Virus record (IMG/VR): IMGVR_UViG_2537562001_000004
DNA length: 64,000 nucleotides
Origin: a virus
Reading direction: 5' to 3' (one strand)
The notes under the pieces were generated by a model. That model saw only the letters and a program-made list of their open reading frames with translations. It was not told where the DNA came from and did no database searches. The translations under genes were made by a program, and so were the position numbers. Shown here piece after piece: positions 2,140 through 57,436 of the stretch; positions within the stretch are counted from its first letter, which is position 1, and each line of letters starts with the position of its first letter.

Positions 2140-2575
2140 GCAACATGTCTAGAGGTATTTAAAAATGAAGAGTTTGATTTTAGTAATTAGCTTGTTGTGA
2201 ATCAGAAAAAGACAATGGGGAAAGTATTAAAGGTTTTGGCTGAATATTGAAAATGTAAAAGAGAATTATCAGAATTAGATAAACGGCGTATTGAAAAAGC
2301 GATTCAAAATGATGTTTATGACGATTTAGTGGGAACGAAATTATATAAGCAATACAAAAAACATCTGTAAGTTAGAGTATGCATTAAAAAAAGCTTTGAA
2401 TGAGTTTGAAAGGGGATCATTGAAGAAGGCTATTTAACTAGAGAGAAGCACAACTGGGTACGGATGACAATGAAATTAAAAGTATCTAAAACAACGTACC
2501 ACAAAGGAAGGCGAGGAGCATTCAGTAGACTGGCTCATGCCCTGGAAATTGTGGTATATGATTGAGTTCGTGGGA
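2140..2575 (+). pseudogene. ArpU/RinA-like phage late transcriptional regulator, inactivated by at least three in-frame stops
   Basis: The translation MATCLEVFKNEEFDFSN*LVVNQKK..VLAEY*KCKREL...EEGYLTREKHNWVRMTMKL matches ORF 57248..57436 and the C-terminus of ORF 48232..48600. There is a TAG where a paralog has E and a TGA where a paralog has R. Confidence 0.6.
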
Positions 2576-2609
2576 AAAATATAGGATAAACAGTTGTACG
2601 ATTAAGGTA

Positions 2610-3600
2610 CCAAGGAATTGGTTCTTATTTTAATTACTAAATATGCCTCGGGTGAAGCGATTAATTTGTAATAACTCACAATGATAATAAATTAGTTAAC
2701 AACTAACGAGGATGAGAGGGGTTTCCTCTCTTTAAGGGTAATAAGAAGAACGGTGGGCAACTCGAGTCCCCTTAGTAGGTTCCTGCCTTTAAAGATGGGA
2801 AAACATTGGAAATATCGTTCACCTAAGGAACGTACATATACAATTGAGATACGAAAGAGGAGGAAATGCACATTTCCGATCTCTTTGAGTCTACAAAGGT
2901 TCTAGTCACTCATTCAATCCCCCCTTTTTTTCTTTGCAGGCTGAAAAAGGTAAGTTTGTAGGGGATGAAAGTCTAAAATATATTTTAACTCGTCAGTAAT
3001 ACGTGAAATATCAGACCTCGAAATACTACTGTTAGTTGATCTGGAAGTTCTCCTTGCAGAGAGAAGCACGAATAAGCGTTATTTTTATCTGGTTAATAAT
3101 TATTCTTTGAAAAGAGAATACGTTTTATGGGAATTGGTGACAAATTCATCATAGCGTGCTCATTATAATAAACTTTACTCGGTGACGCGGAGGTTAGAGG
3201 GGATAGGAATTCCGCGAAAAGAAATGTGTTTTTTGTCAATAGATGAAAATTTAGAAGAGTTTTTAAAATAGATATAGGTGATTATACATCTTCATTATTC
3301 TAAAAAACAGATTTCGTTTCTTACAACGCTGCTGTACGTTGAAAGGTGTGGAAACACCAAATTCAAGTGAAGATTTATTTACCAACAATTTAATATTTTA
3401 TGCTGACTTGGAAGGAGTTTCCTTCCTTTGAGCGTATGGCAAGGTGATATTGAAAATCCTAATTCAAATTCATGTACCTATTCTTTTGCTGTACGTTGAA
3501 AGGGATGGAAAACACCCAATTTTCTTTTCCTGTTTATTTCTGAAAGACCTTATTTTGTTAATCAAGATAGGGTCTTTCCCCTGTTTTAAGAATAGTCATT
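2610..3600 (+). ncRNA. Copy A of a large modular structured non-coding element. Modules are M1 (about 2676-3090), M2 (about 3090-3300), a half M3 (3328-3359), a full M3 hairpin module (3410-3516) and a terminator-like hairpin (3548-3590).
   Basis: It is conserved with copies at 12792-14295, 19215-20340, 47222-48100 (-) and 56070-56950 (-). It contains many short perfect hairpins (ggaaatgcacatttcc; agtctacaaa paired with tttgtaggct; ggaaggagtttccttcc; ggtgtggaaacacc). There is no conserved ORF: a 31-aa ORF with a ribosome-binding site exists only in this copy. Confidence 0.6.
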
Positions 3601-7899: not shown

Positions 7900-8555
7900 G
7901 TTAAACCCCCAACTGGATTTAGTGATTAGTCGTGTACAATATGGTTCCAGATTAGTAGATCATCTATATACAAAATTAGAGCAATAAGGAATTCCTCATG
8001 CTGTATATGCCTATGAATGCTATGTATTTGTAGATGATGCGATTGTAGAAGCAAAAGACTTTTTAGAGAGAGTAAATCCAAATGCGAAGTTTCTTATTTT
8101 AGATGTGGAAGATGATACTTTGGATAAGAGTAAATTTGCAGAAGCATCACAAGCATTTATTGATACATGTCGTGCTTCAGGATGAAAAGTGGTTTATATA
8201 TATGTAGCACAACATATGTACGGTGATTATAAACTACAAAGTGTACAATCTGTACAAGCTGATTCATTTGGTTACCACGTTATGGGACAATCACAAATTA
8301 AGCCAGCGTATCCATGTGACATGTGGCAATATACAGATAATGGTTATATTGAAGGGGTTGGAAAAGTGAATATTAACTTACTACAAGGGGATAAAACATT
8401 AAGGTGGGATTTTGGAAAGTAGGCTAGTTTAATTACTCCAGAAGTAGGGAAACGGGTTGTTTCTAAGGTCGATCAATTACGATTCTATCCAAAACCTTCT
8501 TGGGTAAATGAAGATGATGCAGGTATTGTGACTAAAGGGTTAGGATTCACACCTA
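7900..8555 (+). pseudogene. GH25 muramidase plus SH3b endolysin, heavily decayed and truncated at its 3' end by an IS3-family insertion
   Basis: The translated fragments resemble the 32532..33258 endolysin (..DLWQYT../..[31 protein letters not shown]). ORF 8189..8422 is an internal piece. The reading frame runs straight into the IS copy at about 8556. Confidence 0.6.
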
Positions 8556-9711
8556 TGGAAAAAGTAGATGAGATGTACGAAGTTCACCACAATATAAAGT
8601 GGAAAGTGATTGAGATGAAAAAGGATGGTTATTCAAATCGTATCATTATGGAAACACTCGGAATTAAAAATGTTTCCCAAATTAAGACATGGATGAAATG
8701 GTATCGTACAGATCAAACATATCGTTTTCAACAACCTGTAGGAAAACAATATTCTTATGGAAAAGGGGCAAAAGAGTTAAGTGAATTGGAACAGCTACGA
8801 TTAGAAAATAAACATTTAAAAACAAAATTACTTGTATGGGGAAAGTATATGGAAATCGAAAGGAGCTGAAACCACATACCGTTATCACTCTATGGAATGA
8901 ATTAAAAACAAAAGTAACCGTACAAGAACTGTGTAACATATTAGAATTACCACGTTCCACATTTTATCGTTGGTTACAGACAACAGAACGCCCTAAAGAC
9001 GACATAGAAGAGAAAGTAAAGACGGTCTGTTTTAAGCATAAATTACGATATGGGTATCGAAGAGTGACCGCCACTCTTCAAAAAATGGGGCTATGTGTCA
9101 ATCATAAAAAAGTATTACGAATCATGAACAAATACCACATACTCTCGAAAGTACGTCGTAAGAAAAAGAAATATATCAATGGTGCAGAACCAGTTGTAGC
9201 TCCTCATCGATTAGAACGTCAATTTGAAGCGTCAGCCCCAAATGAAAAGTGGTTTACGGATGTAACGTATTTATTATTTGGAGAGCGTACTTTGTATTTA
9301 TCAACGATTATGGATGCCTTTAATCGCGAAATTATAAGTTATGTCGTCAGTGAATCACAAACGCTGGGATTAGCGATGAAGACGTTAAAACAAGCAATGA
9401 GAGGAAGAAAAATAAAAGATGTCCTCTTTCATTCAGATCAAGGAAGTACTTATACTGCGAAGGAATTTCAAGCGTATGCCAAAGAAAAAGGCATTATCAC
9501 CAGCATGCCCCGGAGAGGAAATTACCATGATAATGCCGTCATGGTAAGCTTCTTTTGTCATTTAAAAAGTGAAGCTTTCTATTCACAAAAGATAACAAAA
9601 GTATCCAACACAACTGTGCGAATTCAAGAAAAATTAAACCACCTATCCCCTAAAGAATTTAGGGAACAGATGGTTTAGGTGTTTTAATAGGTGTCCCTTT
9701 TTCAGGGTTCA
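8556..9711 (+). mobile_element. IS3-family insertion sequence, copy 1 (orfA about 8555-8869, orfB 8836..9678). OrfB carries an internal deletion relative to copy 2.
   Basis: OrfA is a helix-turn-helix protein (KWKVIEMKKDGYSNRIIMETLGIKNVSQIKTWMKWYR). OrfB is an rve-type DDE transposase (HSDQGSTYTAKEF..NYHDNAVMVSFF). The right end ..cagggttca matches copy 2 at 41401. About 12 codons (IVLEYIHYYNRV) present in copy 2 are missing here. Confidence 0.75.
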
Positions 9712-12791: not shown

Positions 12792-14295
12792 GGCTCTTTA
12801 ATTTTGTTTAAATGACTAAGAACAACTAATTTGTAACTACTCACGATAATTAATAATTTGTTAACAACTAACGAGGAGGAAATGACGGCGGGTGTCGCTT
12901 TAAAGGTTGTGTATAAATTCCCGGGCTTGTAGCGGGATCTCTACACATTTCCTATCTCTTTGAGTCTACAAAGGTTTCAATCTTCTTTTCCCTTGTAGGC
13001 TGAAAGGGGTGAAAGGTCAGTAGCGTGTGAAATTCTAAAATATAGTTAATTTGTTAATAATACGTGAAACCTGAAACCCAAAACTCAAAATTCCTACTGT
13101 TAATTGTTCGGGAGTTTCTCCTAGCAAAGAGTAACGCGGATAAGCGTTATTTATTGTCTCATTAATTAAACGATGGTCAATATAAGTTCTTTGAAAAGAA
13201 AATCTGGGGATAGCGTGCTCATTAAAACAACGTTACTCTGTGACGCGGAGGTTAGAGGGGATAAGAGTTTCCCGGAAAGAAAGTGTGTATTTTTCGGTGT
13301 TAAACGAAAAATTAGAAGTGTTTTCGAAATTGATGTATGTAAAAATATAGGGCTGGATAACAACTCCACAAGACATATTACTTATCGAACGATATCAGGG
13401 GAAGGGTTTCCCTTCCTTTGAGCGTACAGCAAAATGAAATAATACACGATGATTGAAGGCAACTTGCTGTGCGTTGAAAGGTGTGGAAACACCATCCCTT
13501 TTTTGCAAAACAAACTGTATTTATAATTACATTTTTCTGATAGAAAGCTTTGTTTCCCTAAGACAGAGGTTTTTATCATTTGAGAGTAACTAATTAGTTG
13601 CTCATTTTTTTATGTTTTTTTCATCAATAGATGAAGAAATAGCAGCGTTTTCCAGCTGGATATATGTGATTATATAAGCGTGAATAACAATCTATACATT
13701 CACTTTAAAATTCATGTTGTTGGGAGGGTTTTCCCTTCCTTTGAGCGTACAGAAAAGGTTAAGATTCTTATGTATCCGTCTATCAATCATCTTACCGTTC
13801 GTCCTGCTGTACGTTGAAAGGTGCGGAAAACACCATAAAGAAGGTTTGTTACATTGTACTCCTGATAAAGTTTATGCTTGATAAAAAGTCCTGTTTCTAG
13901 ATTGGAGAACAGGACTTTTTGTTTTATTACAATCCTTTATATAACAAGGTGTATAGTGAGTTCCTCTGATTGTTACAGTGGTTGGTACTAAGTAAGAGTG
14001 ATCAATTGGTTTCTACTTTTTCGTTAATAGATGAAAAAATAGAAACGTTTTCGAAATAGGCTTACGTAATAATATAGGTGTGGATGCGCTTCCACATTTT
14101 GTTTGAATCACATATTGTTGGGAAGGGTTTCCCTTCCTTTGAGCGTACAGCAAAATTAAACGGTTCCCTTCAGTTCCTTCACTGATTCTGCTGTACGTTG
14201 AAAGGTGTGGAAACACCATCCCTATTGTGCACATTGTAATATAATCTGATAGAAAGCTCTGTTTGTATAACAGGGCTTTCTATCGTTTAAGAGCA
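12792..14295 (+). ncRNA. Copy B of the large structured element. It has M1 (12792-13130), M2 (13130-13370) and three M3 hairpin modules (13398-13494, 13722-13836, 14120-14219). Each M3 is followed by a terminator-like hairpin (13538-13575, 13873-13915, 14252-14285). The third is also followed by a box motif at 13945-13990.
   Basis: Same module order and sequence as copy A. The M3 units repeat at about 330-400 bp spacing with partial M2-tail repeats (cgttaatagatgaaaaaatagaaacgttttcgaaa) between them. The loops differ between units. Confidence 0.6.
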
Positions 14296-19214: not shown

Positions 19215-20340
19215 TATAACGTAAGCTACAGGAACTTACATATACAATCGAGACACAAACAAGAAAGGGATAGGAAATATACATTTCCTATCCCTTTGAG
19301 TCTACAAAGGTTTCACTCATTCAATCACTCCTATTATCTTTTTGTAGGTTGAAAAAGATAATAGGTCAGTGGCGTATGAAAGTCTAATAAAAATATCAAA
19401 CCGTCAATAATACGTGAAATATCAGACCTCGAAATACCACTGTTAATTGATTTGGGAGTTCTATTTGCAAAAAAATAGCGTAAATAGGCATTATTTTTTG
19501 TTGAATTAATTAGTCGACAGTCAATTAGTGTTCATTGAAAAGAAAATATGTTTCATGAGATATTGTGTTCATTATAATAACGTTGCTAGGTGATTCGGAG
19601 GCCAGATGGCATAAGAGTTTCTCGAAAAGAAGATGTGTTTTTTCGTCAATAGATGAAAATTAGAAATATTTTCGAAAGGTGTATTTGTGTTATGTTTTAG
19701 GTGAGAATAGTCATGTGAAAGATGTCTATTCTAATTCAAGAATGTTTAAGGGCCACACAGAGGTTATCTTAAGTGTTTTTGACGACAATTTAATATTTAT
19801 GCTGACTTGGAAGGGTTTTCTCTTCCTTTGAGTGCACAGCAAAACGAATGTATCCGTTTTGCTGTGCGTTGAAAGGTGCGGAAACAACATAAACATTATT
19901 CACTACATTATGGTTTCTGATTTGATAAGAAGTCCTATTTTCTAAATTGGAGAGCGGGGCTTTTTATCGTGTATACAATATCTCATATACAGAGGCGAAT
20001 AGTGAGTTTCTTGAACAAAAAAACGCTTCTATTTTTTCGTTAATAAACGAAAAAATAGAAGCGTTTTCGAAAAACATTTCTGTAATAATATAGATGTAGA
20101 AGAAAAATTTACAATAACATCCTAAATTTCTTTGTTTTCGTAGGGAAGGTTTTCCTTCCTTTGAGCGTACAAAAAGCCAAGGAAAAAAGGCGATTTTGCT
20201 TTGCTGTACGTTGAAAGGTGCGGAAAACACCAAACTAGGGCAGCTTACTGTTTATGATACTTTATCAATGTAATAAATTTATTAAAAAGCCCTATCATTC
20301 ATAAAGATTAGAATGATAGGGCTTTTGGTCACTTAAGAGT
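19215..20340 (+). ncRNA. Copy C of the large structured element. M1 is truncated at its 5' end. There are two M3 modules (19809-19888 and 20143-20231) and terminator-like hairpins (19920-19965, 20285-20328).
   Basis: Same module order. The first M3 has a short loop of about 20 nt. A box motif is present at 19975-20010. Confidence 0.55.
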
Positions 20341-20377
20341 AGCTGAAAGGTTGCTCTATTTTTATGAGAAAAGGAGA

Positions 20378-20523
20378 ATGATGGGCTGAAGGAAATACTG
20401 TCTATTATACTCCTTTTCATTCTGGTAGTAGGTTGTACAACTTTGATTATTGACACATTCAAAGTAATTCGTGAAAAACGTGTTGCTGATAGGGTGGTTG
20501 AGAGGGAAATGGAGCAATTGTAA
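20378..20523 (+). pseudogene. Small single-transmembrane phage protein, paralog of 45014..45178, with a stop at its third codon
   Basis: atgatgggctga..., then EILSIILLFILVVGCTTLIIDTFKVIREKRVADRVVEREMEQL. It sits after an M3-terminator unit, as do the intact paralogs. Confidence 0.5.
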
Positions 20524-22149: not shown

Positions 22150-23620
22150 AAAAAGCCCTGAAAAATCAAGCACTTAAAAGGTGGTTCCGATATTCGATCG
22201 GAGCCATCTTTTTTAATGTCCACTGATAACGATTATAATTATACTCCTCCATATAATCCTTTATGTTGAGCTCAAGGGATTCAAAGGTTTGACAATCTTT
22301 ATAATCTAATTCATCTTTCATATGACCAAAAAAGGATTCCATTGGTGCATTGTCTAAACAATTGCCCCTACGGGACATAGATTGTCTGATCCCCATTTCT
22401 CTTACACGTTTCTGAAATTCAGGGTGTGTATAATGAATACCTTGGTCTGAATGTAGAAGCGCTTCAGGATGAATGACTGCTCCTAATCTATCTTTCAAGT
22501 TATCTAATGTTTGATAGACGATATCCATTCGTAAAGAAGAGGAGACATGATAGGCTAAAATCTCTCGTGTTGTGCTGTCTTTTACACATGATAAATAAGC
22601 CTTCTTTCCTTTTCCATAAAATAAATAGGTAATATCCGTTAATATATTTTTTCAGGCTCTTCTTGATTGAATTGGCGTTTTAAAAGGTTCGGACATGTTT
22701 TATGTTCTTGTGTCGCTTTTGCGATGTGTTTATAAGGATTCGCTCGGCGAATCTTTGTCACAAGATTATATTTACGCATAATACGGTAAATACGTTTGAG
22801 ATTCATACAAATTCCTTTTGTCTTTTCCGACACCATTTTGATAGAACGACCACCACATGTTTTCCCTTTTCGATTAAAAATTTCTTGGATCCATTCATAA
22901 TCTGTTTCATCATTGCGTTCTTTTTCCAGGTGTTTATCTGTCTGATGAAGCCACGCATAGTATCCGCTCCGACTTACCCCAGCCAGTGTGCAAAGATAAC
23001 GCACCATACGTGGGAATTGGAATCGACGTATGGTTTGTTCAATTAGTGTGTATGTTTCTCGTGGTGTTAACGCTTCTTCTGTAACGCCTGCCTTTCGAGT
23101 TCGTCTAACTTTTTTAGGAATGTCAATTCCGCTTCTAAAAACGCAATACGTGCTTCCGCTTTCTTTAATTTTTCAGCAGAAGAGAGAGGTTTTTCCGAAG
23201 GGCGTCCCGTGCTTCCTTTCCCGCGGCGTTCTGTATAAAAGCCTTCCTCACCAAATCGTTCAAAGGTTCTTCGCCAACGTTTCAAGCATTGTTTTGGTTT
23301 CTTCTCACCAATCACAGCTAAGTCGAACCCATTCTCTAAAAAGATTTGGCTAGGACCTTTTCCTTGTTGATTTTCTTTTACCGCTCTTACTTTGAAATCT
23401 GAACAATAGCTAATCGAACGTTCCGATGCTTTTAATACATTTTTATTTTTTTCTAGCTGTTTCATTTGAATTTCGTTAAAAATAATTTTACTCATTCTCC
23501 GTACCTCATTTCTATCGTTGGTTCCATTATAACGAGGTTTTTTTGATAAAAATACACAAAAACCCCGAATCATGGGGCTTTTTTTAGTGTCCATGATTCG
23601 GGGTACAGTTCACTGCAAGG
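22150..23620 (-). mobile_element. IS3-family insertion sequence of a different subgroup. OrfA (23067..23594) is intact. OrfB is broken into 22639..23007 and 22166..22528.
   Basis: OrfA has a helix-turn-helix plus leucine zipper (AEARIAFLEAELTFLKKLDELE). The orfB pieces carry DDE transposase motifs (HSDQGIHYTHPEF, RGNCLDNAPMESFFGHMK). A gap of about 110 bp and a frame change separate the two pieces. The element ends are approximate. Confidence 0.65.
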
Positions 23621-26085: not shown

Positions 26086-27201
26086 TTATTTTTTTCCTAT
26101 TCTCCCCAAACTATCTTTAATAGTGGTTTCCCCCAGTTGAGTGTATAATAAAGCTGTATCTTGACTAGTATGCCCAAGTTGCTGCATTACTTGTAACGAG
26201 TCTTTTTCTTCCATATATAATTTATTTGCTAATGTATGTCTTAATTTATGAGGAGACATTCTTTTTCCGAATGATTTAGTATATTTTTCTACTATATCCT
26301 GGATAGCCCTAACCGAAAGAGGTTGTGCAGTATGTTTATATTTCGATAAAAATACATTTTTTAATTCTTTTCTTGGAGCATATTTGCTATCTCTAATTTC
26401 CATATATTTTTCAAGATCATTCAATGCAATTGGGGTAATCCATACTGAATCTTCTTTATTTCCTTTGCGGATTACATCAATTAGTCTTTCTTTTAGGTTT
26501 ATATCCTCCATACGAAGATCGGCTAATTCACTTACACGAATACCACTACCAAGAAAGAGGGAGAGGATAGCTACATCACGATCTTTATCTCTTAGGAAAT
26601 AGAACAACTGATGTTTTGTTAAAGATTTTTCATGTTCGTACTTAACGTAATTCAAAAATTCTTGATCGTCATCATTATGGAATATTTTAGATCTCATACG
26701 TTTCGCACGAGCATTTAATGTTTCTTTATCTTTATGTATTTCTATTTTAGCCATGACATTTCTATAAAAATAACATTCTCCATCATCATTTTCTGATAGG
26801 GAGGTAAGGTACTTAAATAAAGACTTTAAGGCCGAAATTTTTCTGTTAACAGAGGAATTCTGCATGTTTTGTTGTAGTTTTAGAAACCTTATAAAGTTCT
26901 CAACATCTTTTTTCTTTAAATTCTCCAAATCAGAGAAGGATATGTCTTTTATGGGTTTCAATTCAATAATTTGTTCAGATAATAACCAATTAAAGAAGAC
27001 TCTGAAATCATATACATAATTCAGTAGGGTGGAGGGAGAGGCATCATGCAATTCTTTGTACTCCACAAATTCTTCTATGTAAAAGGGCATTTCATTTAGA
27101 TTTTCGTATAATTTCTTACGATGTACGGATTTTTGACGTTGCTTGCTGTAATCCATAAAAATCACCTCATCTATACTATAACAGAAAAAACACACGAACA
27201 C
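26086..27201 (-). CDS. Tyrosine site-specific recombinase (integrase), intact
   Basis: A 371-aa ORF. The C-terminus has a catalytic R..HxxR..Y arrangement (KLRHTLANKLY...LGHTSQDTALLYTQ). It lies in an AT-rich island (23600-29500). Confidence 0.7.
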   Translation of the reverse strand: MFVCFFCYSIDEVIFMDYSKQRQKSVHRKKLYENLNEMPFYIEEFVEYKELHDASPSTLLNYVYDFRVFFNWLLSEQIIELKPIKDISFSDLENLKKKDVENFIRFLKLQQNMQNSSVNRKISALKSLFKYLTSLSENDDGECYFYRNVMAKIEIHKDKETLNARAKRMRSKIFHNDDDQEFLNYVKYEHEKSLTKHQLFYFLRDKDRDVAILSLFLGSGIRVSELADLRMEDINLKERLIDVIRKGNKEDSVWITPIALNDLEKYMEIRDSKYAPRKELKNVFLSKYKHTAQPLSVRAIQDIVEKYTKSFGKRMSPHKLRHTLANKLYMEEKDSLQVMQQLGHTSQDTALLYTQLGETTIKDSLGRIGKK

Positions 27202-33929: not shown

Positions 33930-34090
33930 GATTTTGAGTTTGCTTTGTTATTTTTCATCGTCTTCAATTGCTCCATTTCCTTCTCAATCATCCTGTCAAT
34001 CTCTCGTTTTTTATGAATCATTTCGTTAAATGCATTTATAGTAAATGAACCCCCATACTAACAATTACAATGAATAGTATTTCTTTTATC
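33930..34090 (-). pseudogene. Degenerate copy of the small transmembrane protein gene. A box motif lies at 34141-34200 and an M3 module at 34276-34385 upstream.
   Basis: The reverse strand carries ...gagaaggaaatggagcaattgaag.. (EKEMEQLK) with multiple stops. Confidence 0.4.
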
Positions 34091-34728
34091 CCATCACTCT
34101 CCTTTTCACAAAAAATAGAGAAATCATTTGATAACTCTTACTTAGCGCCAGCCACCGTAACGATTAGAGGCACTCACTATACGTCTTGGTATATGAGATA
34201 TTACATAAAATAAAAAGCCCTGTTCTTCAATTAAAAAAACATGGCTTCTTATCGGAATTGCTTATATTATTTTATGGTGTTTCCACACCTTTCAACGTAC
34301 AGCAGATTGTGAGTCAATTCCAAATAGTGAGCGCCGGTTTTTTGATACTATCTCGCTATACGCTCAAAGGAAGAGAAATCCTTCCCCGTATATGAAGTTG
34401 CTAGTGAAGGCGCAAATTCATTTCCAACACTTGCATTATCACATAAAGCTATTCCCAAAAATGTTTCTATTTTTTATTTATTGGCGAAAAAACAGGTCTT
34501 CTTCCAGACCCCTTAATCATCTGATTACTTTTGATATAGAAAAACCCCCAATCATTTTGAGTCTTTAGAATGATTGGGGGGGTGAAAAAAACAGAGAGTT
34601 TATATAAAATGGGAACGTTATGAATGTTATATCCACTTATTCACTCTCAAACTTCTTCCAATCGCTAAATACCATATATTTAAACATTAGTAATTAATCG
34701 GAAGAATACTCGGGTAACTGTGAACCCG

Positions 34729-41400: not shown

Positions 41401-42472
41401 TGAACCCCGAAAACGGGGCACCTATCAAAACACCTAAACCATCTGTTCCCTATATTCTTTAGGGGATAGGTGGTTTAATTTTTCTTGAATTCGCACACGA
41501 TTGTAGTAATGAATGTATTCTAGCACAATCTTTCGCACAGTTGTGTTGGATACTTTTGTTTATCTTTTGTGAGTAGAAAGCTTCGCTTTTTAAATGACCA
41601 AAGAAGCTTTCCATGACGGCATTATCATGGCAATTTCCTCTCCGGGATATGCTTGAAATTCCTTCGCAGTATACATACTTCCTTGATCCGAGTGAAGGAT
41701 GACATCTTTTACTTTTCTCCCTCGCATTGCTTGTTTTAATGTTTTCATCGCTAATGTTAAAGTTTGTGATTCACTGATGACATAACAAATAATTTCACGA
41801 TTAAAGGCATCTATAATCGTTGATAAATACAATGTGCGCCCTCCAAATAATAGGTAAGTCACATCCGTAAACCGCTTTTCATTTTGGGTTGATGATTCGA
41901 ATTGACGTTCCAATCGATGAGGGTCTACGACTGGTTCAGCACCATTGATATATTTCTTTTTCTTACGATGCACTTTTGAGAGTATATGATATTGTTTCAT
42001 AATCCGTAATACTATTTTATGATTGACACATAGCCCCGTTTTTCGAAGAGTGGCGGTCACTCTTCGATATCCATACCGTAATTTATGCCTAAGGCAGACC
42101 TTCTTTGCTTTCTCTTCTATCTCGTCTTTAGGGCGCTCGGCTTTCTGTAACCAATGATAAAATGAGGAACGTGGTAATTCTAATACTTTACACAGTTCTT
42201 TTATGGTTACTTTTGTTTTTAAATGCTTATTTTCTAATCGTAGCCGTTCCAATTCACTTAGCTCTTTTGATCCTTTTCATAAGAATATTGTTTTCCTACA
42301 GGTTGTTGAAAACGGTACGTTTGACCGGTGCGATACCATTTCATCCATGTCTTAATTTGGGAAATATTTTTAATTCCAAGCTTCTCCATAATGGTCCGAT
42401 TGGAATACCCATCCTTTTTCATTTCAATCACTTTCCACTTTACTTCTTCTGGGTAATGAACTCTTGTTTTCA
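41401..42472 (-). mobile_element. IS3-family insertion sequence, copy 2 of the 8556..9711 element. OrfB is frameshifted by a deletion of about 27 bp.
   Basis: ORFs 42258..42533 (orfA) and 41590..42252 (orfB) are 85-90% identical to copy 1. The deletion removes AKEKGIITS and shifts the frame at ..AKEFQAYPGEEIAMIM. Confidence 0.7.
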
Positions 42473-44459: not shown

Positions 44460-45017
44460 CTATTTGTATAACCTATAAACAAAACAATCTACAAAAGCAC
44501 CTTTGCACTTTGGGCAAATCTTCCCATCGAAATGTTCGTCTTTCATTACTTCTACTTTATCTGCATATCCACAGCATCCACACTTATAACGTGCATTGCC
44601 GCTCTTTAATGAACCCTGTTGAATTGCATCTGCTGTTAGATATTCCTTCGTAACATAGCGTTTATTTGCCCGTTCTTCATTAACAAACCCTTGCCCAATA
44701 ACCTCCAAGATACCATTAAATGCTTTATTCAATTCTGTAGCTATGGTTCGCAAAACTTTAATTGCTTTTTTGATATCTTCTTTCTTTTCTTCTTGTTCAG
44801 GTGTCATATCTAAAATATGACCATATTCCTTTTTCAATTCTTCAAATTCTTTCTTTGATTGATTCGATCTTTCGTTTAACAATTGCAATTGTATCCCGTT
44901 TTGTCTTGCAATTTCAGAACTTGTTTCAATATTCATTCGAATCTGTTTCCTCAAAACTTCTTGCTCTTTAATCCAAGCGTTCATTTGACGTACATATATT
45001 TCATGTTTATTCATCAT
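44460..45017 (-). CDS. Phage protein with an N-terminal coiled coil and a C-terminal C4 zinc ribbon (hypothetical)
   Basis: A 185-aa ORF with YKCGCCGY...CPKCKG. Pseudogene copies exist at 4070-4650 and 20870-21060. Confidence 0.5.
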   Translation of the reverse strand: MMNKHEIYVRQMNAWIKEQEVLRKQIRMNIETSSEIARQNGIQLQLLNERSNQSKKEFEELKKEYGHILDMTPEQEEKKEDIKKAIKVLRTIATELNKAFNGILEVIGQGFVNEERANKRYVTKEYLTADAIQQGSLKSGNARYKCGCCGYADKVEVMKDEHFDGKICPKCKGAFVDCFVYRLYK

Positions 45018-45238
45018 TTATCGCTCCTTTGTTTTATAGCCTTCAATTGCTCCATTTCCTTCTCGACCATCCTTTTAACATCACGTTTTTCACGAATCAC
45101 TTTGATAATGTCAACCATCCAATTTGTACAACTTGATACCAGAATGACAAGGAATATAATGGACAATATTTCTCCCATCCCACCACTCTCCTTTTCACAC
45201 AAAAATAGAGCAACCAAACGGTTACTCTTGTATAGCAA
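45014..45238 (-). CDS. Small single-transmembrane protein, probably 54 aa starting at the ATG near 45178. Resembles a type I toxin or holin.
   Basis: The ribosome-binding site aaaggag lies 8 nt before ATG GGA GAA ATA. MGEILSIIFLVILVSSCTNWMVDIIKVIREKRDVKRMVEKEMEQLKAIK. Paralogs lie at 45981..46202 and 47001..47198. Confidence 0.55.
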   Translation of the reverse strand: MLYKSNRLVALFLCEKESGGMGEILSIIFLVILVSSCTNWMVDIIKVIREKRDVKRMVEKEMEQLKAIKQRSDK

Positions 45239-45299: not shown

Positions 45300-45610
45300 T
45301 AGATGTTTGCGCCCTAGTCTGGTGTTTTCCACACCTTTCAACGTACAGCAGAATCAGTGCAGGAACTGAAGGGAACCGGTTAATTCCGCTGTACGCTCAA
45401 AGGAAGGGAAACCCTTCCCATGTCTTGGGTAAATTAATTTTGTGAAGTTGCGATCCACACCTATATTATTCCATAATCACCTTTTTGAAAACGCTTTTAT
45501 TTTTCATCTATTAACGAAAAAACACGTTTTCTTTTCAAAGAACTCTTATCCCCTCTAGCCTCCGCTTCACCGAGTAACGTTTATTATAATGGGCACGCTA
45601 TGTTCCTTCT
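45300..45610 (-). ncRNA. M2 partial (45480-45600), M3 hairpin module (45321-45419) and a terminator (45239-45285) leading the small transmembrane-protein gene at 45178
   Basis: ggtgttttccacacctttcaacgtacagcag-[loop]-gctgtacgctcaaaggaagggaaacccttcc. Confidence 0.55.
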
Positions 45611-45980: not shown

Positions 45981-46202
45981 TTATCGCCTTTTCGAATGTT
46001 CGATAAAGTATCCTTCACCCTTTATCGCTTTCAATTGTTCCATTTCCTTCTCGACCATCCTGCTAACAGCACGCTTTTCACGAATCACCTTGATTACATC
46101 AATAATCCAACTTGTACAACTTGATGCCAAAATACTAACGGATATAATAGACAGTATTTCTCCCATCCCACCACGCTCCTTTTCGCATAAAAAATAGAGC
46201 AA
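45981..46202 (-). CDS. Small single-transmembrane protein paralog (true start probably near 46166)
   Basis: MGEILSIISVSILASSCTSWIIDVIKVIREKRAVSRMVEKEMEQLKAIK. A box motif lies at 46212-46290 and a terminator at 46291-46337 upstream. Confidence 0.55.
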   Translation of the reverse strand: MLYFLCEKERGGMGEILSIISVSILASSCTSWIIDVIKVIREKRAVSRMVEKEMEQLKAIKGEGYFIEHSKRR

Positions 46203-46377
46203 CCCAATAGTTGCTCTTAATTAACACCAACCGCCGTAACGATTAGAGGAACTTACTATACGTCTCGGTATATGAGATAGTTCGTATACAAAAAAGCTCT
46301 ATTGTTCTGACCCTTAAGAACAAACAGAGCTTTTTTGCAATTGTGCAATATATAAGAAATGACACCGATATTTCCCT

Positions 46378-46905
46378 GGTGTTTCCGCACCTTTCAACGT
46401 ACAGTAAAGTATGGGAGAAGGCATGTTAGGATACCTTTTAACTTTACTGTACGCTCAAAGGAAGGGAAACCCTCCCAAATCAGCATATGACATATTTAGT
46501 TGTTATTAAGAACATTTAAATCAGCTTGCACCATCAATAAATGCTCTTACTCCAAGGTCGATGTGGTAAATCGACTATCTACCTCCCTATAATCACATAT
46601 ATTCACTTTGAAAACACATCTGTTTTTTCATCTATTAACGAAAAAACAAACTTTCCTTTCAAGGGAACTCTCTATACGTCTTGGCATGTGAGCGCGACAA
46701 AAAGTCCTGTTCCCTAATCCAGAAACAGAACTCCCTATCAAATTAAGAATAGATGACAGCAATATGCGTTCGAAAACCCAATAAGCCTTTGGTGTTTTCC
46801 ACACCTTTCAACGTACAGCAGATTAAGTGAGGGAACGGATTTAGGGTACCTGTTAATTCTGCTGTACGCTCAAAGGAAGGGAAACCCTTCCCCGTATATG
46901 AAGTT
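46378..46905 (-). ncRNA. Two M3 hairpin modules (46378-46475, 46791-46890) with an M2-tail and box (46580-46700) between them
   Basis: Module 46378-46475 carries the compensatory pair caacgtacagTAaagt paired with actttActgtacg, where other copies have cagCag paired with ctGctg. Confidence 0.55.
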
Positions 46906-47000: not shown

Positions 47001-47198
47001 TTAAAAGAGCAACCATGCATCAGTTGCCCTTTCGTCGATTTCCTTCTTCAACGACTTATTCATATCACGTTTTTCACGGATCACTTTGATTATGTCAATA
47101 ATCCAACTTGTACAACTTGATACCAGAACGACAAGAAATATAACAGACAGTATTTCCCCCATCCCATCACACTCCTTTTCGCATAAAAAATAGAGCAA
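47001..47198 (-). CDS. Small single-transmembrane protein paralog (true start probably near 47162)
   Basis: MGEILSVIFLVVLVSSCTSWIIDIIKVIREKRDMNKSLKKEIDE. An M3 module (47294-47408) and terminator (47222-47256) lie upstream. Confidence 0.5.
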   Translation of the reverse strand: MLYFLCEKECDGMGEILSVIFLVVLVSSCTSWIIDIIKVIREKRDMNKSLKKEIDERATDAWLLF

Positions 47199-47221: not shown

Positions 47222-48100
47222 AAAAAGCCCTGTCTTGGGTAAACAGAGCTTTCTATCAGAAAAAAGTTATTACATATACTACACAATAGGGACGGTGTTT
47301 TTCTACACCTTTCAACGTACAGCAATTTTTTTAATGTGAGCACTACGATTGATTTTTCAATGTCAGTTTTGTTTTGCTGTACGCTCAAAGGAAGGGAAAA
47401 CCCTTCCCCATAATATGATTTTAAAGGTAAGAACAACACGTAAGTTGGCTACTTACACTTATATTTTTACACATATTCATTTCAAAAACGCTTCTGATTT
47501 TTCATCTATTAACGAAAAAACACGTTTTCTTTTTGAGGAACTCTTATCCCCTCTAGCCTCCGCGTCACCGAGTAACGTTATTATAATGAGCACGCTATCC
47601 CACGAAACGTATTCTCTTTTCAAAGAACACACTTATTGAACACTGGTTAATACGTACTAACAAAAAACAACGTAACAAAACGTTGCCTCTTGCATAGATA
47701 ACACCCGATCAATTAACAGTAGTAATTGAGGTTTCAGCTTTCGCGCATTACTGACGAGTTAAAATGTTTTAGACTTTCATACGCTACTCACCTATTACCT
47801 CTTTCAGCCTACAAATGGAATGGATAACGATTGAATGAGTGATTGGAACCTTTGTAGACTCAAAGAGATAGGAAATGTGTATTTCCCACTCTTTCGTGTT
47901 CAGTCCAGTATATGGATGGTTTCCCATCTTTAAAGGTATTCACCTTAAGTTGCAGTGCGAAATTCCAACTTAAAACAATCCCCTTAAAGAGAGGAAATCC
48001 TCTCCTCCTCGTTGGTCGATAACTAATTTGTTATCATTGTGAGTAATTACAAATTAACTGCTCGGCTTGAGATGTTTAAACAAAATAAAAGAGCCAACAG
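47222..48100 (-). ncRNA. Copy E of the large structured element, reverse orientation. M1 is at 47690-48100, M2 at 47450-47640 and M3 at 47294-47408. It lies directly downstream of the intact ArpU gene.
   Basis: The reverse complement aligns along its full length with copies A and B. Confidence 0.6.
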
Positions 48101-48231
48101 ATACCAGCAGGTTTGCTAGGATGCCTTATCGACTCTTTAATCATAAAATACTTATTATCAGTGTGATTCCTTTGTTTTTCCCTTCTTTTTTCGCATTTTT
48201 TCCGTCATTTCGCTCTTTTCCACCTCTATTC

Positions 48232-48600
48232 CTAGTGCATATGCCAATCTTCTAAACGCTCTAGCTCGTTTGTTATAGTATGGTGTTTTTCCAGCCCTAA
48301 CTTTTGGGACATCACAATCCAGTTATGCTCTTTTGATTCCACATAACCTTCACGTATAATTCTTTGCTCTTGTACGTTCAATGCATTCTCTATCGCATCT
48401 TCAAAATCTTTGATGTATTCGTATCGTTTTCTCTTTTTTTCTGATACCTCAAGACCATTTTGGATATCTTCCCGATCTCCCTTTGTAACGCTTAGCAAAT
48501 ACAGCCGATACTTTTCTAATGCTTGATGTACATTAGCCTTTGTAGCTTCCATATCTAACTCAGGAATTTTAATATCAAGCATTTCAATCCACTCCTGCAT
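48232..48600 (-). CDS. ArpU/RinA-like phage late transcriptional regulator, intact
   Basis: A 122-aa ORF whose C-terminus (QRIIREGYVESKEHNWIVMSQKLGL) resembles a sigma-70 region-4-like helix-turn-helix. Pseudogene paralogs lie at 2140-2575 and 56990-57436, each followed by the large element. Confidence 0.5.
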   Translation of the reverse strand: MQEWIEMLDIKIPELDMEATKANVHQALEKYRLYLLSVTKGDREDIQNGLEVSEKKRKRYEYIKDFEDAIENALNVQEQRIIREGYVESKEHNWIVMSQKLGLEKHHTITNELERLEDWHMH

Positions 48601-55748: not shown

Positions 55749-55990
55749 TTATCCGAAATAACTCGGAAAAACTTTTTTGTTTATCTTCATTTTCTTCGAT
55801 TGTATGATAAACTGGACAAAGTAGTCGTAAATTGTTCTCTTCTAATTTAAGTGTTTCATCTTCTTTGATTGATATTATGTGATGAACATGAGCACACCTA
55901 CCAAAGACGAACCCTCCACATCGTTGACAGCAGCCACTCTCTCTTTCGTATACCTGTGACCTAACATACTTCCATGCATCAGTTGCCCTT
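55742..55990 (-). pseudogene. HNH endonuclease remnant (no ATG start, N-terminus missing)
   Basis: The reverse translation ..ESGCCQRCGGFVFGRCAHVHHIISIKEDETLKLEENNLRLLCPVYHTIEE is a zinc-finger HNH. Confidence 0.55.
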
Positions 55991-56069
55991 CCATAAGCAC
56001 TAACCCCTTAACGATCAGAGAAACTCACTATACGTCTTGGTATATGAGATAGTGTATATACGACAAAAA

Positions 56070-56950
56070 GCCCTATTCTTCAATTAAGAAAACAGGGCTT
56101 TTCGCCGGTTTAAGAGAATGTGTTCTACAAAAAAGTTAGCACATTTTCTCGTCTGGTGCTTTCACACCTTTTAAATATTAAATTGTTATAGTGCGAAATT
56201 ATTTTCCGCACCTTTCAACGTACAGCAGATTATAGATGTGAGTGCAAATAATGGTTTTTGATGTCATGTTTATTCCGCTGTACGCTCAAAGGAAGGGAAA
56301 TCCTTCCCTAGAAAAATAAAAAAATCAAGAATATAGGTGCGAAGTTGTCATCCACACCTATATAATCACACATATTCATTTCGAAAGCACTTCTAGTTTT
56401 TCATCTATTAACGAAAAAACACGTATTCTTATCGAGGAACTCTTATCCCCTCTAGCCTCCGCACCACCGAGTAACGTTTTTTAATGAGCACGCTATCCCA
56501 TAAAACGTATTATCTTCTCTAAGAACATTTATTGACCGTTGGTTAATTAATCGAACAAAAAATAACGCTTATTTACGTTACTCTTTGAAAGGAAAAATCT
56601 AAATCAATTTAAATCAATCAAAAACAATTATTAAGGCTTCGGCCTTCACGTATTACTGACGGTATAAAATTTGTTGTAGACTTTCATACACTACTAACCT
56701 ATTACCTTTGTAGGCTGAAAGAGATAGGAAATGTGTATTTCCCCCTCTTGTGTATCGGCACTTCAGTATATGGATAGTTTCTCATTTTTAAAGGTACTCA
56801 CCTTAAGCCATAGTACGAAATTCCAACTTAAAACAATACCCTTATCTTCTTCCTCGTTGGTCGGACCCTTGCTTACGTTTATTCGTGAGTAAACTATAAT
56901 TAATTGCCCTTGCCGAGTGTTTAAATAGAATTGAAAAAAGACATCAATTT
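56070..56950 (-). ncRNA. Copy F of the large structured element, reverse orientation, with an M3 at 56190-56308 and an extra half-unit at 56153-56180. The central M1 stem-loop is collapsed by an internal deletion at about 56700-56730.
   Basis: The reverse complement aligns with the other copies. Where they have ctctttgagtctacaaaggtt[35 nt]tttgtaggctgaaagaggtaat, this copy has only ctctttcagcctacaaaggtaat. Confidence 0.55.
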
Positions 56951-56989: not shown

Positions 56990-57436
56990 TTCCACGAAAT
57001 CAATCATACACAACAATTTTTAATGTATGACTAACTTACTAAATGTCTCACGTCTTTCGTTGTAATACGTGGAACTAGACACATTGAATACCATCGTCAT
57101 TCTCACCCAATTATGTTTCTCTTCTTTTAAATATCCTTTTTCTATAATTGCTCTTTGGCGAACATTCAAAACATGTTCTAGTGCATGTTCGAACTTCCAA
57201 ATGTTTTTATACTGCTTGTACCCCTTTGTTTCCTTTAACTTTTCGTATTAATCACTTTGAATTGCTTTTTCAATTCGTAGTTTATCTTTTATCGGTAACT
57301 CTCTTTTATCTTTCCTATATTCAGCTAGAGCCTGCAATACTTTCTTTGTTGTCTTTTTCCAATTCACAACAGGTTCATCACTAAAATCAAACTCTTCATT
57401 CTGAAATACCTCTGAACATGTTGCCATATTATCCAA
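56990..57436 (-). pseudogene. ArpU/RinA-like late regulator with an in-frame TAA (ORF 57248..57436 is the N-terminal part)
   Basis: ..IEKAIQSD*YEKLKETKGYKQYKNIWKFEHALEHVLNVRQRAIIEKGYL continues the ORF after the stop and aligns with ORF 48232..48600. Confidence 0.55.

What the first reader, a model, noticed from the sequence alone, without database searches (positions are those of the whole stretch)
55990..56060. Conserved roughly 50-nt box between the terminator and the downstream gene
The motif tctcatatacc(a/g)agacgtatagt(g/a)agt.cctct(a/g)atcgttacgg occurs at 13945-13990 and 19975-20010 on the + strand, and at 34141-34200, 46212-46290, 46655-46700 and 55990-56055 on the - strand. It always lies after the module's terminator and 30-80 nt before the next gene start (small transmembrane protein, HNH, or the next module). 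It weakly resembles the arms of the module itself (gacgtatagtgag against gagcgtacagcaa). It could be the late promoter or operator recognised by the ArpU-like activator, or an RNA processing or antiterminator element.
Basis: seen in the sequence. Interest (0 to 1): 0.55.

Follow-up and report, generated by a model that had tools for sequence, protein, structure and literature searches.

The report
Conserved promoter-like box after a terminator
A real, well-conserved 35-45 base sequence sits directly after a transcription terminator in decayed Bacillus cereus prophage DNA and most likely restarts transcription of a small downstream gene; it is a fairly ordinary, lineage-restricted regulatory element whose controlling factor is unknown.

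Summary
A profile of the box finds exactly six copies in the window (E 2e-14 to 4e-11) at about the stated coordinates. Each one abuts the T-run of the intrinsic terminator (T1) that ends a repeated hairpin 'module'. The source is Bacillus cereus BAG6X1-2.

Nine more copies occur in six other sources, five Bacillus cereus-group assemblies or read sets and one JGI metagenome contig, and all nine also follow a terminator. An ENA contig that begins inside a box adds a partial tenth. None were found in phage, plasmid, IMG/VR, GTDB-representative or other JGI metagenome sequence.

Across the 15 copies the near-invariant core is TATAGTGAGTT, a good -10 hexamer plus five bases. A second block, TATCTnATA, lies 19 nt upstream. 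There is no -35 hexamer.

The core is better conserved than the flanking terminator, leader and coding sequence. It keeps its identity while both flanks are swapped. Relatives that lack it carry TTGATA-18-AATAAT in the same slot.

Best reading (about 0.45): a factor-dependent, -10-only promoter and 5' control unit for the downstream small-gene cassette.

The ArpU link is not supported. The box lies 1-2 kb from the arpU-like genes, and many copies have no such gene nearby. No covariation supports an RNA element. Interest is low to moderate.

The parts
56012..56057 (-). Box copy named in the finding. The core ATCTCATATACCAAGACGTATAGTGAGTTTCTCT lies at 56050-56017.
   Evidence: nhmmer E 1.8e-14; sequence read; alignment A7.
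56027..56032 (-). TATAGT, the -10-like hexamer. It is followed by the conserved GAGTT at 56026-56022.
   Evidence: Four of the six bases (ATAG) are invariant and the two outer T are present in at least 90% of the 15 aligned copies. No -35 partner was found by the consensus scan.
56065..56103 (-). Intrinsic terminator T1 of the upstream module, abutting the box.
   Evidence: Hairpin plus T-run read. The equivalent T1 at 46 kb folds strongly. The region gives terminator-like weak Rfam matches.
55971..55990 (-). 5' half of hairpin H2 (GGGCAACTGATGCATGG), fused to the inside of an HNH gene. This is a deletion joint.
   Evidence: Compared with the intact H2-like hairpin at about 47030 (GGGCAACTGATGCATGGTTGCTC) and with L036:10533. 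The HNH reading frame lacks its N-terminal part.
46240..46285 (-). Box copy upstream of an intact small membrane-protein ORF.
   Evidence: nhmmer E 5e-13; sequence.
46189..46218 (-). Hairpin H2 (AAGAGCAACTATTGGGTTGCTCTATTTTTT). It is terminator-like and lies between the box and the ribosome-binding site.
   Evidence: Terminator scan; folds.
45981..46166 (-). Small membrane-protein ORF (61 aa, P0001, IEQ_05014). The ATG is 84 nt downstream of the 14-nt core motif GACGTATAGTAAGT (46264-46251), 88 nt after the TATAGT hexamer.
   Evidence: pN/pS is 0.3-0.6 among in-register homologues.
46656..46701 (-). Box copy joined to the operator and promoter of the next module. This copy is diverged (TATAGA).
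   Evidence: nhmmer E 2.6e-11; context.
34161..34206 (-). Box copy upstream of a pseudogenised small membrane-protein ORF.
   Evidence: nhmmer E 1e-13.
13928..13971 (+). Box copy (diverged) between the terminator of module 13806 and the operator of module 14190.
   Evidence: nhmmer E 4e-11.
19973..20016 (+). Box copy (diverged, AATAGT) between the terminator of module 19861 and the operator of module 20203.
   Evidence: nhmmer E 2.4e-11.

Best explanation
The box is a self-contained transcription-start and control unit.

**Proposed mechanism.** It is a promoter with a good -10 element (TATAGT) and no -35 hexamer, so it probably needs an activator or a non-housekeeping sigma factor. It restarts transcription just downstream of the intrinsic terminator T1 that ends the upstream module RNA. 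The transcript would begin in or just after the conserved GAGTTCC. It would carry a leader of about 60-85 nt and then one of two small genes. In the membrane-protein version the leader contains a second terminator-like hairpin, H2. The genes are a 61-aa membrane protein or a 62-aa lysine-rich protein.

**Shown:**
- the sequence, its copies and their invariant position
- its orientation
- its conservation pattern
- its mosaic independence from both flanks

**Inferred:**
- that RNA polymerase starts there
- that a factor recognises the upstream block TATCTnATA and/or the GAGTT extension

Boxes that sit in front of the next module's operator are explained as products of unequal recombination within the shared 9-mer GAGTTCCTC. 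They are not separately needed promoters.
For: 1. **Position.** All 15 full copies, in 7 sources, directly follow an intrinsic terminator and point the same way as the downstream gene.
2. **Core.** The near-invariant core is TATAGTGAGTT. Its first six bases match TATAAT at 5 of 6 positions; the A at -11 is invariant and the T at -7 is present in at least 90% of copies. A second conserved block, TATCTnATA, lies 19 nt upstream.
3. **Selection on the core.** In four box-to-membrane-protein loci the 39-nt core is 87-95% identical. The leader is 71-96%, the first 120 nt of coding sequence 59-86%, and T1 58-68%.
4. **Mosaic behaviour.** L037 shares the box and everything downstream with window 46264 but has a different T1. 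RP43 9224 shares T1 and the box with 46264 but has a different downstream gene. The box is therefore a unit of its own.
5. **Functional analogy.** In relatives L031 and L033, the same slot contains TTGATA-18-AATAAT, a 10/12 match to the consensus, followed in L033 by a terminator-like leader hairpin. The slot is after T1 and before the same lysine-rich ORF.
6. **Co-absence.** In L043 the lysine-rich ORF lacks both T1 and the box and simply continues from the module. That fits a terminator-plus-promoter pair.
7. **Spacing.** The distance from TATAGT to the start codon is about 57-64 nt in five lysine-rich-ORF loci and about 81-88 nt in the membrane-protein loci.
Against: - No -35 hexamer and no TG extension. 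The consensus scanner does not call the box.
- The positions 6-8 nt after TATAGT are pyrimidines, which is unusual for Bacillus transcription starts (established knowledge).
- The spacer and the five bases after the hexamer are as conserved as the hexamer. That is not the pattern of a plain sigma-A promoter.
- Several membrane-protein ORF copies have T1 and H2 but no box (modules 47323, 45349 and 20203, and L036:5900). A promoter is therefore not obligatory in that slot.
- In the membrane-protein version a terminator-like hairpin (H2) lies only about 45 nt downstream.
- There are no transcript data at all.
Confidence: 0.45

Rival explanations
1. The box is the late promoter or operator recognised by the ArpU-like (Ltr-family) activator.
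For: - A -10-only promoter with a conserved upstream block is the usual design of activator-dependent late promoters.
- Two window loci place boxes between an arpU-like gene and packaging genes. The arpU-like genes are at 48232-48600 (TIGR01637, E 2.7e-7) and the remnant at 57095-57373. The packaging genes are HNH, terS and terL.
- The box contains TATnnnn three times (TATCTCA, TATACCA, TATAGTG).
Against: [quoted passage not shown] Here the boxes lie 1.04, 1.53 and 1.95 kb from the arpU-like stop codons, beyond a 700-nt non-coding region, a module promoter and a terminator.
- Boxes at 13.9, 20.0 and 34.2 kb, the three boxes in RP43 and the one in L044 have no arpU-like gene within several kb.
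- The genes served are small accessory ORFs, not terS. The HNH adjacency at 56 kb is a deletion artefact.
- A better candidate site lies right after the arpU-like stop: four GGAAAA(A/G) direct repeats at about 11-nt phase.
- The arpU-like match is below the family's curated cut-off (30.9 against 43.1 bits).
Confidence: 0.12
2. The box acts as RNA within a read-through or leader transcript. One version is a hairpin (CUCAUAUAC...GUAUAGUGAG) plus an anti-Shine-Dalgarno stretch (UUCCUCU) that controls translation. Another is an attenuator working with hairpin H2, or an RNase processing site.
For: - The canonical copies can form a 9-bp hairpin with one bulge.
- In the minimum-free-energy fold of the 46-kb leader, UUCCUC pairs with the ribosome-binding site.
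- The leader folds into a G·U-containing hairpin plus H2, z = -4.4 in the best copy.
- A terminator-like H2 downstream invites an attenuation model.
Against: - No pair shows compensatory change.
- In diverged copies (L042, L044, L045, L043) one arm of the palindrome changes without compensation, while TATAGTGAGTT stays invariant.
- The leader hairpin is weak or absent in other copies, with z from -0.7 to +1.4.
- The lysine-rich-ORF version has a different leader and no H2.
- The box lies after the terminator T1, not before it, so it cannot act as T1's antiterminator.
Confidence: 0.15
3. The box has no function of its own. It is a hitch-hiking piece of a young, recombining repeat unit, kept similar by recent duplication or gene conversion. 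It serves at most as a patch of homology where cassettes recombine.
For: - Distribution is narrow: found in seven sources, plus one contig that begins inside a box; none in phages, plasmids, IMG/VR, GTDB representatives or other JGI metagenomes.
- Copies occur in tandemly duplicated units of about 1 kb (family D1).
- Junctions with the next module fall exactly in the 9-mer GAGTTCCTC, which also ends the canonical pre-operator flank.
- The three window copies in front of operators are the most decayed.
Against: - The core is more conserved than the adjacent coding sequence, leader and terminator in all six pairwise comparisons of four loci from three sources.
- TATAGTGAGTT persists unchanged in copies whose remaining sequence has diverged to about 60-70%.
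- It keeps a fixed position and orientation relative to the terminator and the gene, with two unrelated downstream genes.
Confidence: 0.15
4. The box is a promoter on the opposite strand for a phage-type single-subunit RNA polymerase. It would make RNA antisense to the terminator and module.
For: The reverse complement of the invariant core is AACTCACTATA. This equals positions -10 to -1 of the T7 class III promoter (TAATACGACTCACTATAG; consensus from established knowledge; sequence).
Against: - The base at +1 is variable (C, C, A, C, T) rather than G.
- Positions -17 to -13 are not AT-rich.
- The window has no ORF longer than 564 aa and no polymerase-like gene.
- Seven of the ten matching bases follow automatically from a -10-like TATAGTG on the other strand.
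- Such a transcript would run straight into T1.
Confidence: 0.02

Closest known systems
Activator-dependent late promoters of temperate phages of Gram-positive bacteria (RinA/ArpU/LtrC-controlled terS promoters; PMC3753634)
   Same: - Located in the region between a late-activator gene and the packaging genes in two window loci.
- Has a -10 element without a usable -35 hexamer.
- Has conserved sequence upstream of the -10.
   Different: - Not immediately distal to the activator gene.
- No clear set of 7-nt direct repeats.
- Serves small accessory ORFs rather than terS.
- Present in loci with no activator gene nearby.
- Occurs several times per locus.
Terminator-promoter pairs that bracket 'moron'-type accessory genes in phage genomes (established knowledge: Hendrix and colleagues)
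   Same: A small accessory gene is preceded by its own start signal directly after a terminator. The unit moves between different genomic neighbours as a cassette.
   Different: The promoter here is not a recognisable sigma-A promoter. In one version a second terminator-like hairpin lies between it and the gene.
Lambdoid late promoter PR' with its nearby terminator tR' (Q antitermination; established knowledge)
   Same: The architecture matches: a promoter with conserved spacer and initial transcribed sequence, a terminator a few tens of bases downstream, then the downstream genes.
   Different: - No Q-like gene was identified.
- No second -10-like pause element is seen in the initial transcribed region.
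- The organism and phage type are different.
- The resemblance is one of layout only.
-10-only late promoters such as T4 TATAAATA (gp55/gp33; established knowledge)
   Same: A conserved extended -10-like block (TATAGTGAGTT) appears to carry most of the information, with no -35.
   Different: No gp55-like sigma factor or clamp-loader system is present. The resemblance is by analogy only.

Membership tests
Sigma-A (sigma-70 housekeeping) promoter | -10 hexamer close to TATAAT, with A at position 2 and T at position 6 | tested here: met
   TATAGT matches at 5 of 6 positions. ATAG is invariant and both outer T are present in at least 90% of 15 copies.
Sigma-A (sigma-70 housekeeping) promoter | -35 hexamer close to TTGACA, 16-18 nt upstream, or a TG extension | tested here: not met
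   The consensus scans do not call the box. Positions -35 to -30 read ACAATA, GAACTA, GTAATA, ACACTA or GCATTA in different copies, and positions -15/-14 are not TG.
Sigma-A (sigma-70 housekeeping) promoter | Orientation and position upstream of a gene, downstream of the preceding unit's terminator | tested here: met
   True of 15 of 15 copies.
Sigma-A (sigma-70 housekeeping) promoter | A mapped transcription start | not testable with these tools
   No transcript data are available. The bases 6-8 nt after the hexamer are pyrimidines.
Ltr (RinA/ArpU/LtrC)-dependent late promoter | Binding repeats immediately distal to the activator gene | tested here: not met
   The boxes lie 1.04-1.95 kb from the arpU-like stop codons. 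The paradigm is taken from PMC3753634.
Ltr (RinA/ArpU/LtrC)-dependent late promoter | Two to four short (7-nt) direct repeats required for activation | tested here: inconclusive
   Only a loose TATnnnn pattern occurs three times. The second and third units differ in sequence and spacing among copies.
Ltr (RinA/ArpU/LtrC)-dependent late promoter | Drives terS and the late operon | tested here: not met
   The downstream genes are a 61-aa membrane protein or a 62-aa lysine-rich protein. The HNH adjacency at 56 kb is a deletion joint.
Ltr (RinA/ArpU/LtrC)-dependent late promoter | Co-occurrence with an Ltr-family gene in the same element | tested here: not met
   No arpU-like gene lies near the boxes at 13.9, 20.0 or 34.2 kb, in the RP43 locus or in L044. 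Action in trans cannot be excluded.
ECF sigma (sigma-W-type) promoter, AAC-N16/17-CGT | Conserved CGT in the -10 region and AAC in the -35 region | tested here: not met
   CGTATA is present in the canonical copies but becomes AGTATA, TTTATA or ATATA in L042, L044, L045 and L043. GAAC lies at the right distance in 5 of 15 copies.
Structured cis-regulatory RNA (antiterminator or processing hairpin) | Base pairs maintained by compensatory change | tested here: not met
   No pair in the box hairpin shows changes on both sides. The arms change on one side only in diverged copies. There is no Rfam match.
Miniature transposable element (MITE, or the bcr repeats of the B. cereus group) | Terminal inverted repeats and a target-site duplication at filled versus empty sites | tested here: not met
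   Filled and empty sites were compared. The 69-nt insert has no inverted ends and no duplication. The bcr consensus sequences themselves could not be obtained.
Site-specific recombination core site | Exchange point inside the central spacer of an inverted-repeat site | tested here: not met
   Mosaic breakpoints fall at the two edges of the box, never within it.

The most novel reading that the evidence does not exclude
TATAGTGAGTT with its upstream TATCTnATA block could be the recognition sequence of a so far unrecognised transcription factor or sigma-like protein of B. cereus-group mobile elements.

Together with the upstream hairpin 'module' RNA and the two terminators, it would form a new kind of portable cassette with three steps:
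1. Terminate the module RNA.
2. Restart transcription at the box.
3. Attenuate at H2.

The cassette would govern small membrane-active or nucleic-acid-binding proteins, for example a toxin-like or superinfection-exclusion gene. It spreads among prophage remnants and chromosomal islands next to Mga-family regulators.
Probability: 0.1. Interest if true: 0.5.

Novelty: new member of a known kind. Interest (0 to 1): 0.25.

Why it matters
If it is a promoter, the box marks where an independent transcription unit begins inside a dense array of repeated hairpin-RNA modules. It also gives a short, testable sequence (TATAGTGAGTT) with which to look for the factor that controls small accessory genes in B. 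cereus-group prophage remnants.

It helps in reading the more unusual neighbouring feature, the module RNA, because it shows that the module is a separately terminated unit.

On its own it is a lineage-restricted regulatory element of a familiar general type.

Tried and rejected
- **Rfam.** No family matched the box or the module, at gathering thresholds over the whole window or permissively over 55800-56600.
- **Similarity searches.** The module-plus-box region gave no box match in phage records or plasmids.
- **Exact-pattern scans.**
  - The 15-mer and 18-mer hits in IMG/VR were all chance matches in unrelated contexts.
  - Longer patterns found nothing in IMG/VR.
  - They found nothing in the GTDB representatives.
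  - In the JGI metagenomes they found only one contig.
- **Protein-guided scan.** The scan of GTDB representatives with the small membrane protein failed: 45 pattern hits, none confirmed.
- **Sigma-W-type (ECF) promoter.** Rejected, because CGT and AAC are not conserved.
- **Other Bacillus sigma consensus sequences** (sigma-B, D, E, F, G, H, K). Checked by eye against the core, with no fit. This rests on my own knowledge of the consensus sequences.
- **Known operator boxes.** LexA (Cheo), Spo0A, CodY and PlcR boxes do not fit, again judged by eye.
- **Small ORF through the box.** An apparent frame (IPRRIVSSS...) runs through T1 and has no start signal. Rejected.
- **MITE.** No inverted ends and no target duplication.
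- **Site-specific recombination site.** Breakpoints lie at the edges of the box, not in its centre.
- **cos or pac site.** There are several copies per locus and copies in non-phage loci. Rejected.
- **Homology between the box and the pre-operator flank.** Beyond the shared 9-mer it is not significant: 158 of 2000 shuffles scored as well.
- **Antisense targets of the module's variable loops.** Only chance-level 11-14-mers were found within the window, apart from paralogous modules.
- **T7-like antisense promoter.** Noted and judged coincidental.
- **bcr1-18 repeats.** The repeat paper (Kristoffersen 2011) is not held, so identity with a bcr element could not be checked.

Full report
**Context**

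The window has 33% G+C and is rich in pseudogenes. It matches Bacillus cereus-group phages over terminase and portal genes. An exact protein look-up places it in Bacillus cereus BAG6X1-2, on contig JH791986.1.

It holds fragments of several related prophages and IS3-type insertion sequences. The prophage genes include:
- an arpU-like activator at 48232-48600
- a remnant of another arpU-like gene at 57095-57373
- HNH, terS and terL pieces
- a tail spike

**The module**

Fourteen copies of a 'module' are scattered through the window. Seven are on the + strand below 21 kb and seven on the - strand above 34 kb. Each module has:
- an operator-like inverted repeat (TTTTTCGTTAATAGATGAAAAA) and an extended -10-type promoter
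- a long imperfect hairpin with strictly conserved base sequence (…CCTTCCTTTGAGCGTACAGC … GCTGTACGTTGAAAGG…), an invariant G·U pair and a hypervariable apex
- an intrinsic terminator, here called T1

Yes.
- The 14-nt core occurs 7 times at up to 2 mismatches, against 0.42 expected.
- A profile of the 47-nt box finds exactly six copies, with E from 2e-14 to 4e-11, within about 20 nt of the stated coordinates. The next hit has E above 1.
- The extra hit at 57034 is not a copy.
- Each copy begins right after the T-run of a T1.
- Only 6 of the 14 modules carry a box.

**What follows each box**

Two continuations exist after the core (ATCTCATATACCAAGACGTATAGTGAGTTCCTC).

1. *Leader, hairpin H2 and the small ORF.* The core is followed by:
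   - a 30-nt stretch
   - a second terminator-like hairpin, H2 (AAGAGCAAC…GGTTGCTCTATTTTTT)
   - a ribosome-binding site
   - a 61-aa ORF with a hydrophobic N-terminus

   This arrangement is intact at 46 kb and pseudogenised at 34 kb.

2. *The next module.* The core is followed by the pre-operator flank and operator of the next module (13948, 19994, 46680). The join lies exactly in the 9-mer GAGTTCCTC, which also ends the canonical pre-operator flank. The RP43 locus shows this most clearly. Sequences downstream of the 9-mer at 8796 and 9729 are nearly identical, while the upstream sides differ. These copies are best explained by unequal recombination in the 9-mer.

The copy named in the finding (56036) is followed by the 5' half of an H2-like hairpin fused to the inside of an HNH gene. 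Its position 'before HNH' therefore results from a deletion.

**Copies elsewhere**

The box is absent from:
- phage records and plasmids
- IMG/VR
- GTDB species representatives
- JGI metagenomes, apart from one contig

Homologues of the two downstream proteins led to nine further full copies:
- three in Bacillus cereus group sp. RP43 (L036)
- one on the JGI contig (L037)
- one in B. cereus GCA_002562505.1 (L042)
- one on a second contig of BAG6X1-2 (L044)
- one in read set SRR4142418 (L045)
- one in B. mycoides GCA_050628015.1 (L046)
- one in B. cereus Schrouff (L043)

An ENA contig (L038) starts inside a box. All nine full copies follow an intrinsic terminator and point towards the downstream gene. 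In five of them that gene is an unrelated 62-aa lysine-rich ORF, whose family is widespread in the group.

**What is conserved**

- In the 15-copy alignment the invariant or near-invariant block is TATAGTGAGTT. A second block, TATCTnATA, starts 19 nt upstream (17 nt in L043). Little else is conserved.
- The palindrome TATAC-N6-GTATA and the CGTATA of the canonical copies are not kept in the diverged copies, and no change is compensated.
- In four box-to-membrane-protein loci from three sources the 39-nt core is 87-95% identical. The leader is 71-96%, the first 120 coding bases 59-86% and T1 58-68%.
- The ORF itself looks like a real gene, with pN/pS of 0.3-0.6.
- The box keeps its identity while either flank is exchanged. 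It therefore behaves as a selected, self-contained unit of about 35-45 bp.

**Most likely function**

TATAGT is a 5-of-6 match to the -10 consensus, with the critical A and T in place. Several further observations fit a restart promoter for the downstream cassette:
- the fixed orientation
- the position straight after a terminator
- a constant distance to the start codon of about 57-64 nt or about 81-88 nt
- a slot that, in box-less relatives L031 and L033, holds TTGATA-18-AATAAT (followed in L033 by a terminator-like leader hairpin) in front of the same lysine-rich ORF
- a copy of that ORF in L043 lacking both T1 and the box

There is no -35 hexamer and no TG extension. The flanking bases are as conserved as the hexamer. 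The promoter would therefore depend on a factor that reads TATCTnATA and/or GAGTT. This step is inference; no transcript data exist.

Points against:
- The predicted start bases are pyrimidines.
- Several membrane-protein ORF copies manage without a box.
- H2 lies close downstream.

I put this reading at about 0.45.

**The ArpU idea**

The arpU-like protein is a weak, sub-threshold member of TIGR01637, with E 2.7e-7 and 30.9 against 43.1 bits. It also matches PHROG 248, 'transcriptional activator'.

In the characterised Ltr systems the recognition repeats lie immediately distal to the activator gene and drive terS (PMC3753634). Here:
- The boxes are 1.0-1.9 kb away, beyond a 700-nt non-coding region, a module promoter and a terminator.
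- Half the window copies, the RP43 locus and the L044 locus have no arpU-like gene nearby.
- Four GGAAAA(A/G) direct repeats directly after the arpU-like stop fit the paradigm better.

Action in trans cannot be excluded, so I leave this at about 0.12.

**Other readings**

- *RNA element (about 0.15).* There is no covariation, and the conserved part is not the paired part.
- *Functionless hitch-hiker or recombination patch (about 0.15).* It explains the narrow distribution and the 9-mer junctions, but not the excess conservation of the core.
- *T7-like antisense promoter (about 0.02).* The reverse complement of the core equals T7 promoter positions -10 to -1. Most of that match follows from the -10-like hexamer. 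The +1 base varies, and no polymerase gene is present.
- *Rejected outright.* ECF-type promoter, MITE, recombination core site and cos site are rejected on tested features (see the membership table).

**Verdict**

The box is real and under constraint. It is most simply a factor-dependent promoter and 5' control unit that belongs to the downstream small-gene cassette rather than to the module or its terminator. It is a new, lineage-restricted member of a familiar kind of element, and its interest is low to moderate. The neighbouring module RNA is the more unusual object.

Noticed in passing
window, module right-arm (GCTGTACGTTGAAAGG) positions: + strand 3331, 3488, 13466, 13806, 14190, 19861, 20203; - strand 34303, 34758, 45349, 46405, 46819, 47323, 56226: Fourteen copies of a roughly 100-nt 'module'. 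It is a long imperfect hairpin with strictly conserved base sequence (CCTTCCTTTGAGCGTACAGC … GCTGTACGTTGAAAGG), an invariant G·U pair and a hypervariable 20-52-nt apex. Each has its own promoter and terminator. There is no Rfam match. It also occurs in IMG/VR Bacillus prophages and in plasmids. Its function is unknown and it is more unusual than the box.
   Followed up: partly
window 56397-56418 (-), 47498-47519 (-), 46624-46645 (-), 45500-45521 (-), 14017-14038 (+), 20033-20054 (+) and others: An operator-like inverted repeat, TTTTTCGTTAATAGATGAAAAA, lies about 45-65 nt upstream of each module's extended -10 (TGTGATTATA). It is followed by the palindromic GTTTTCGAAA. The shared 7-mer YGAAAAA suggests a common binding protein.
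   Followed up: no
window 47520-48230 (-); related stretches near 2500-3230 (+), 13064-13290 (+), 19407-19640 (+); L037 1-480: A conserved, apparently non-coding region of about 700 nt lies between the arpU-like gene and the first module (repeat family D20 and neighbours). It contains module-like motifs (GGAGAGGATTTCCTCTCTTTAAGGGG, TCTCTTTGAGTCTACAAAGG). It may be a large structured RNA or a packaging region. There is no Rfam match.
   Followed up: no
window 48175-48230 (-): Four direct repeats, GGAAAA(A/G), lie at about 11-nt phase immediately after the stop codon of the arpU-like gene. They are followed by TGATAATAA. This is the position and form expected for an Ltr/ArpU binding site according to PMC3753634.
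   Followed up: no
window 45014-45202, 45981-46166, 47001-47162 (-); pseudogenes near 34090 (-) and 20310-20520 (+): Three tandem paralogues, at about 1-kb spacing, of a 53-62-aa protein with a hydrophobic N-terminus and a charged tail, plus decayed copies. Homologues are very rare (six clusters in 5.8 billion proteins). pN/pS is 0.3-0.6. The size and layout resemble type I toxins or holin-like proteins, and each is preceded by the terminator-like hairpin H2.
   Followed up: partly
window 56022-56032 (-) and all box copies: The reverse complement of the invariant core (AACTCACTATA) is identical to positions -10 to -1 of the T7 class III promoter. This is judged coincidental: the +1 base is variable and no single-subunit polymerase is present.
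   Followed up: partly
window 1-21000 versus 34000-57500; GC-skew turn at about 22-26 kb: The window is roughly mirror-symmetric.
- Modules, arpU-like genes and IS3 copies (8528-9678 + against 41590-42252 -) occur in inverted orientation on either side of the skew switch.
- So do two tRNA-Met genes scoring the same 72.5 bits (18724 - and 39681 +).
- The central part holds an integrase gene (26086-27201) and more IS3-family remnants (about 22166-23594).
   Followed up: no
L036 1875-3365 and 8700-10700; L044 1373-2800, 3500-4186 and 5646-7106: In strain RP43 and on a second contig of BAG6X1-2, the module, box and small-ORF cassettes sit in non-phage surroundings next to Mga/AtxA-family regulator genes (PF05043). 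No arpU-like or structural phage genes lie within several kb.
   Followed up: no
L036 9297-9485; L031 1034-1225; L042-L046: A 62-aa lysine-rich ORF (MR.KKELLKQWKADLQA…) is widespread in the B. cereus group, with 70 clusters. It commonly follows the module in prophages, ahead of the HNH and terS genes. It has no family assignment.
   Followed up: partly
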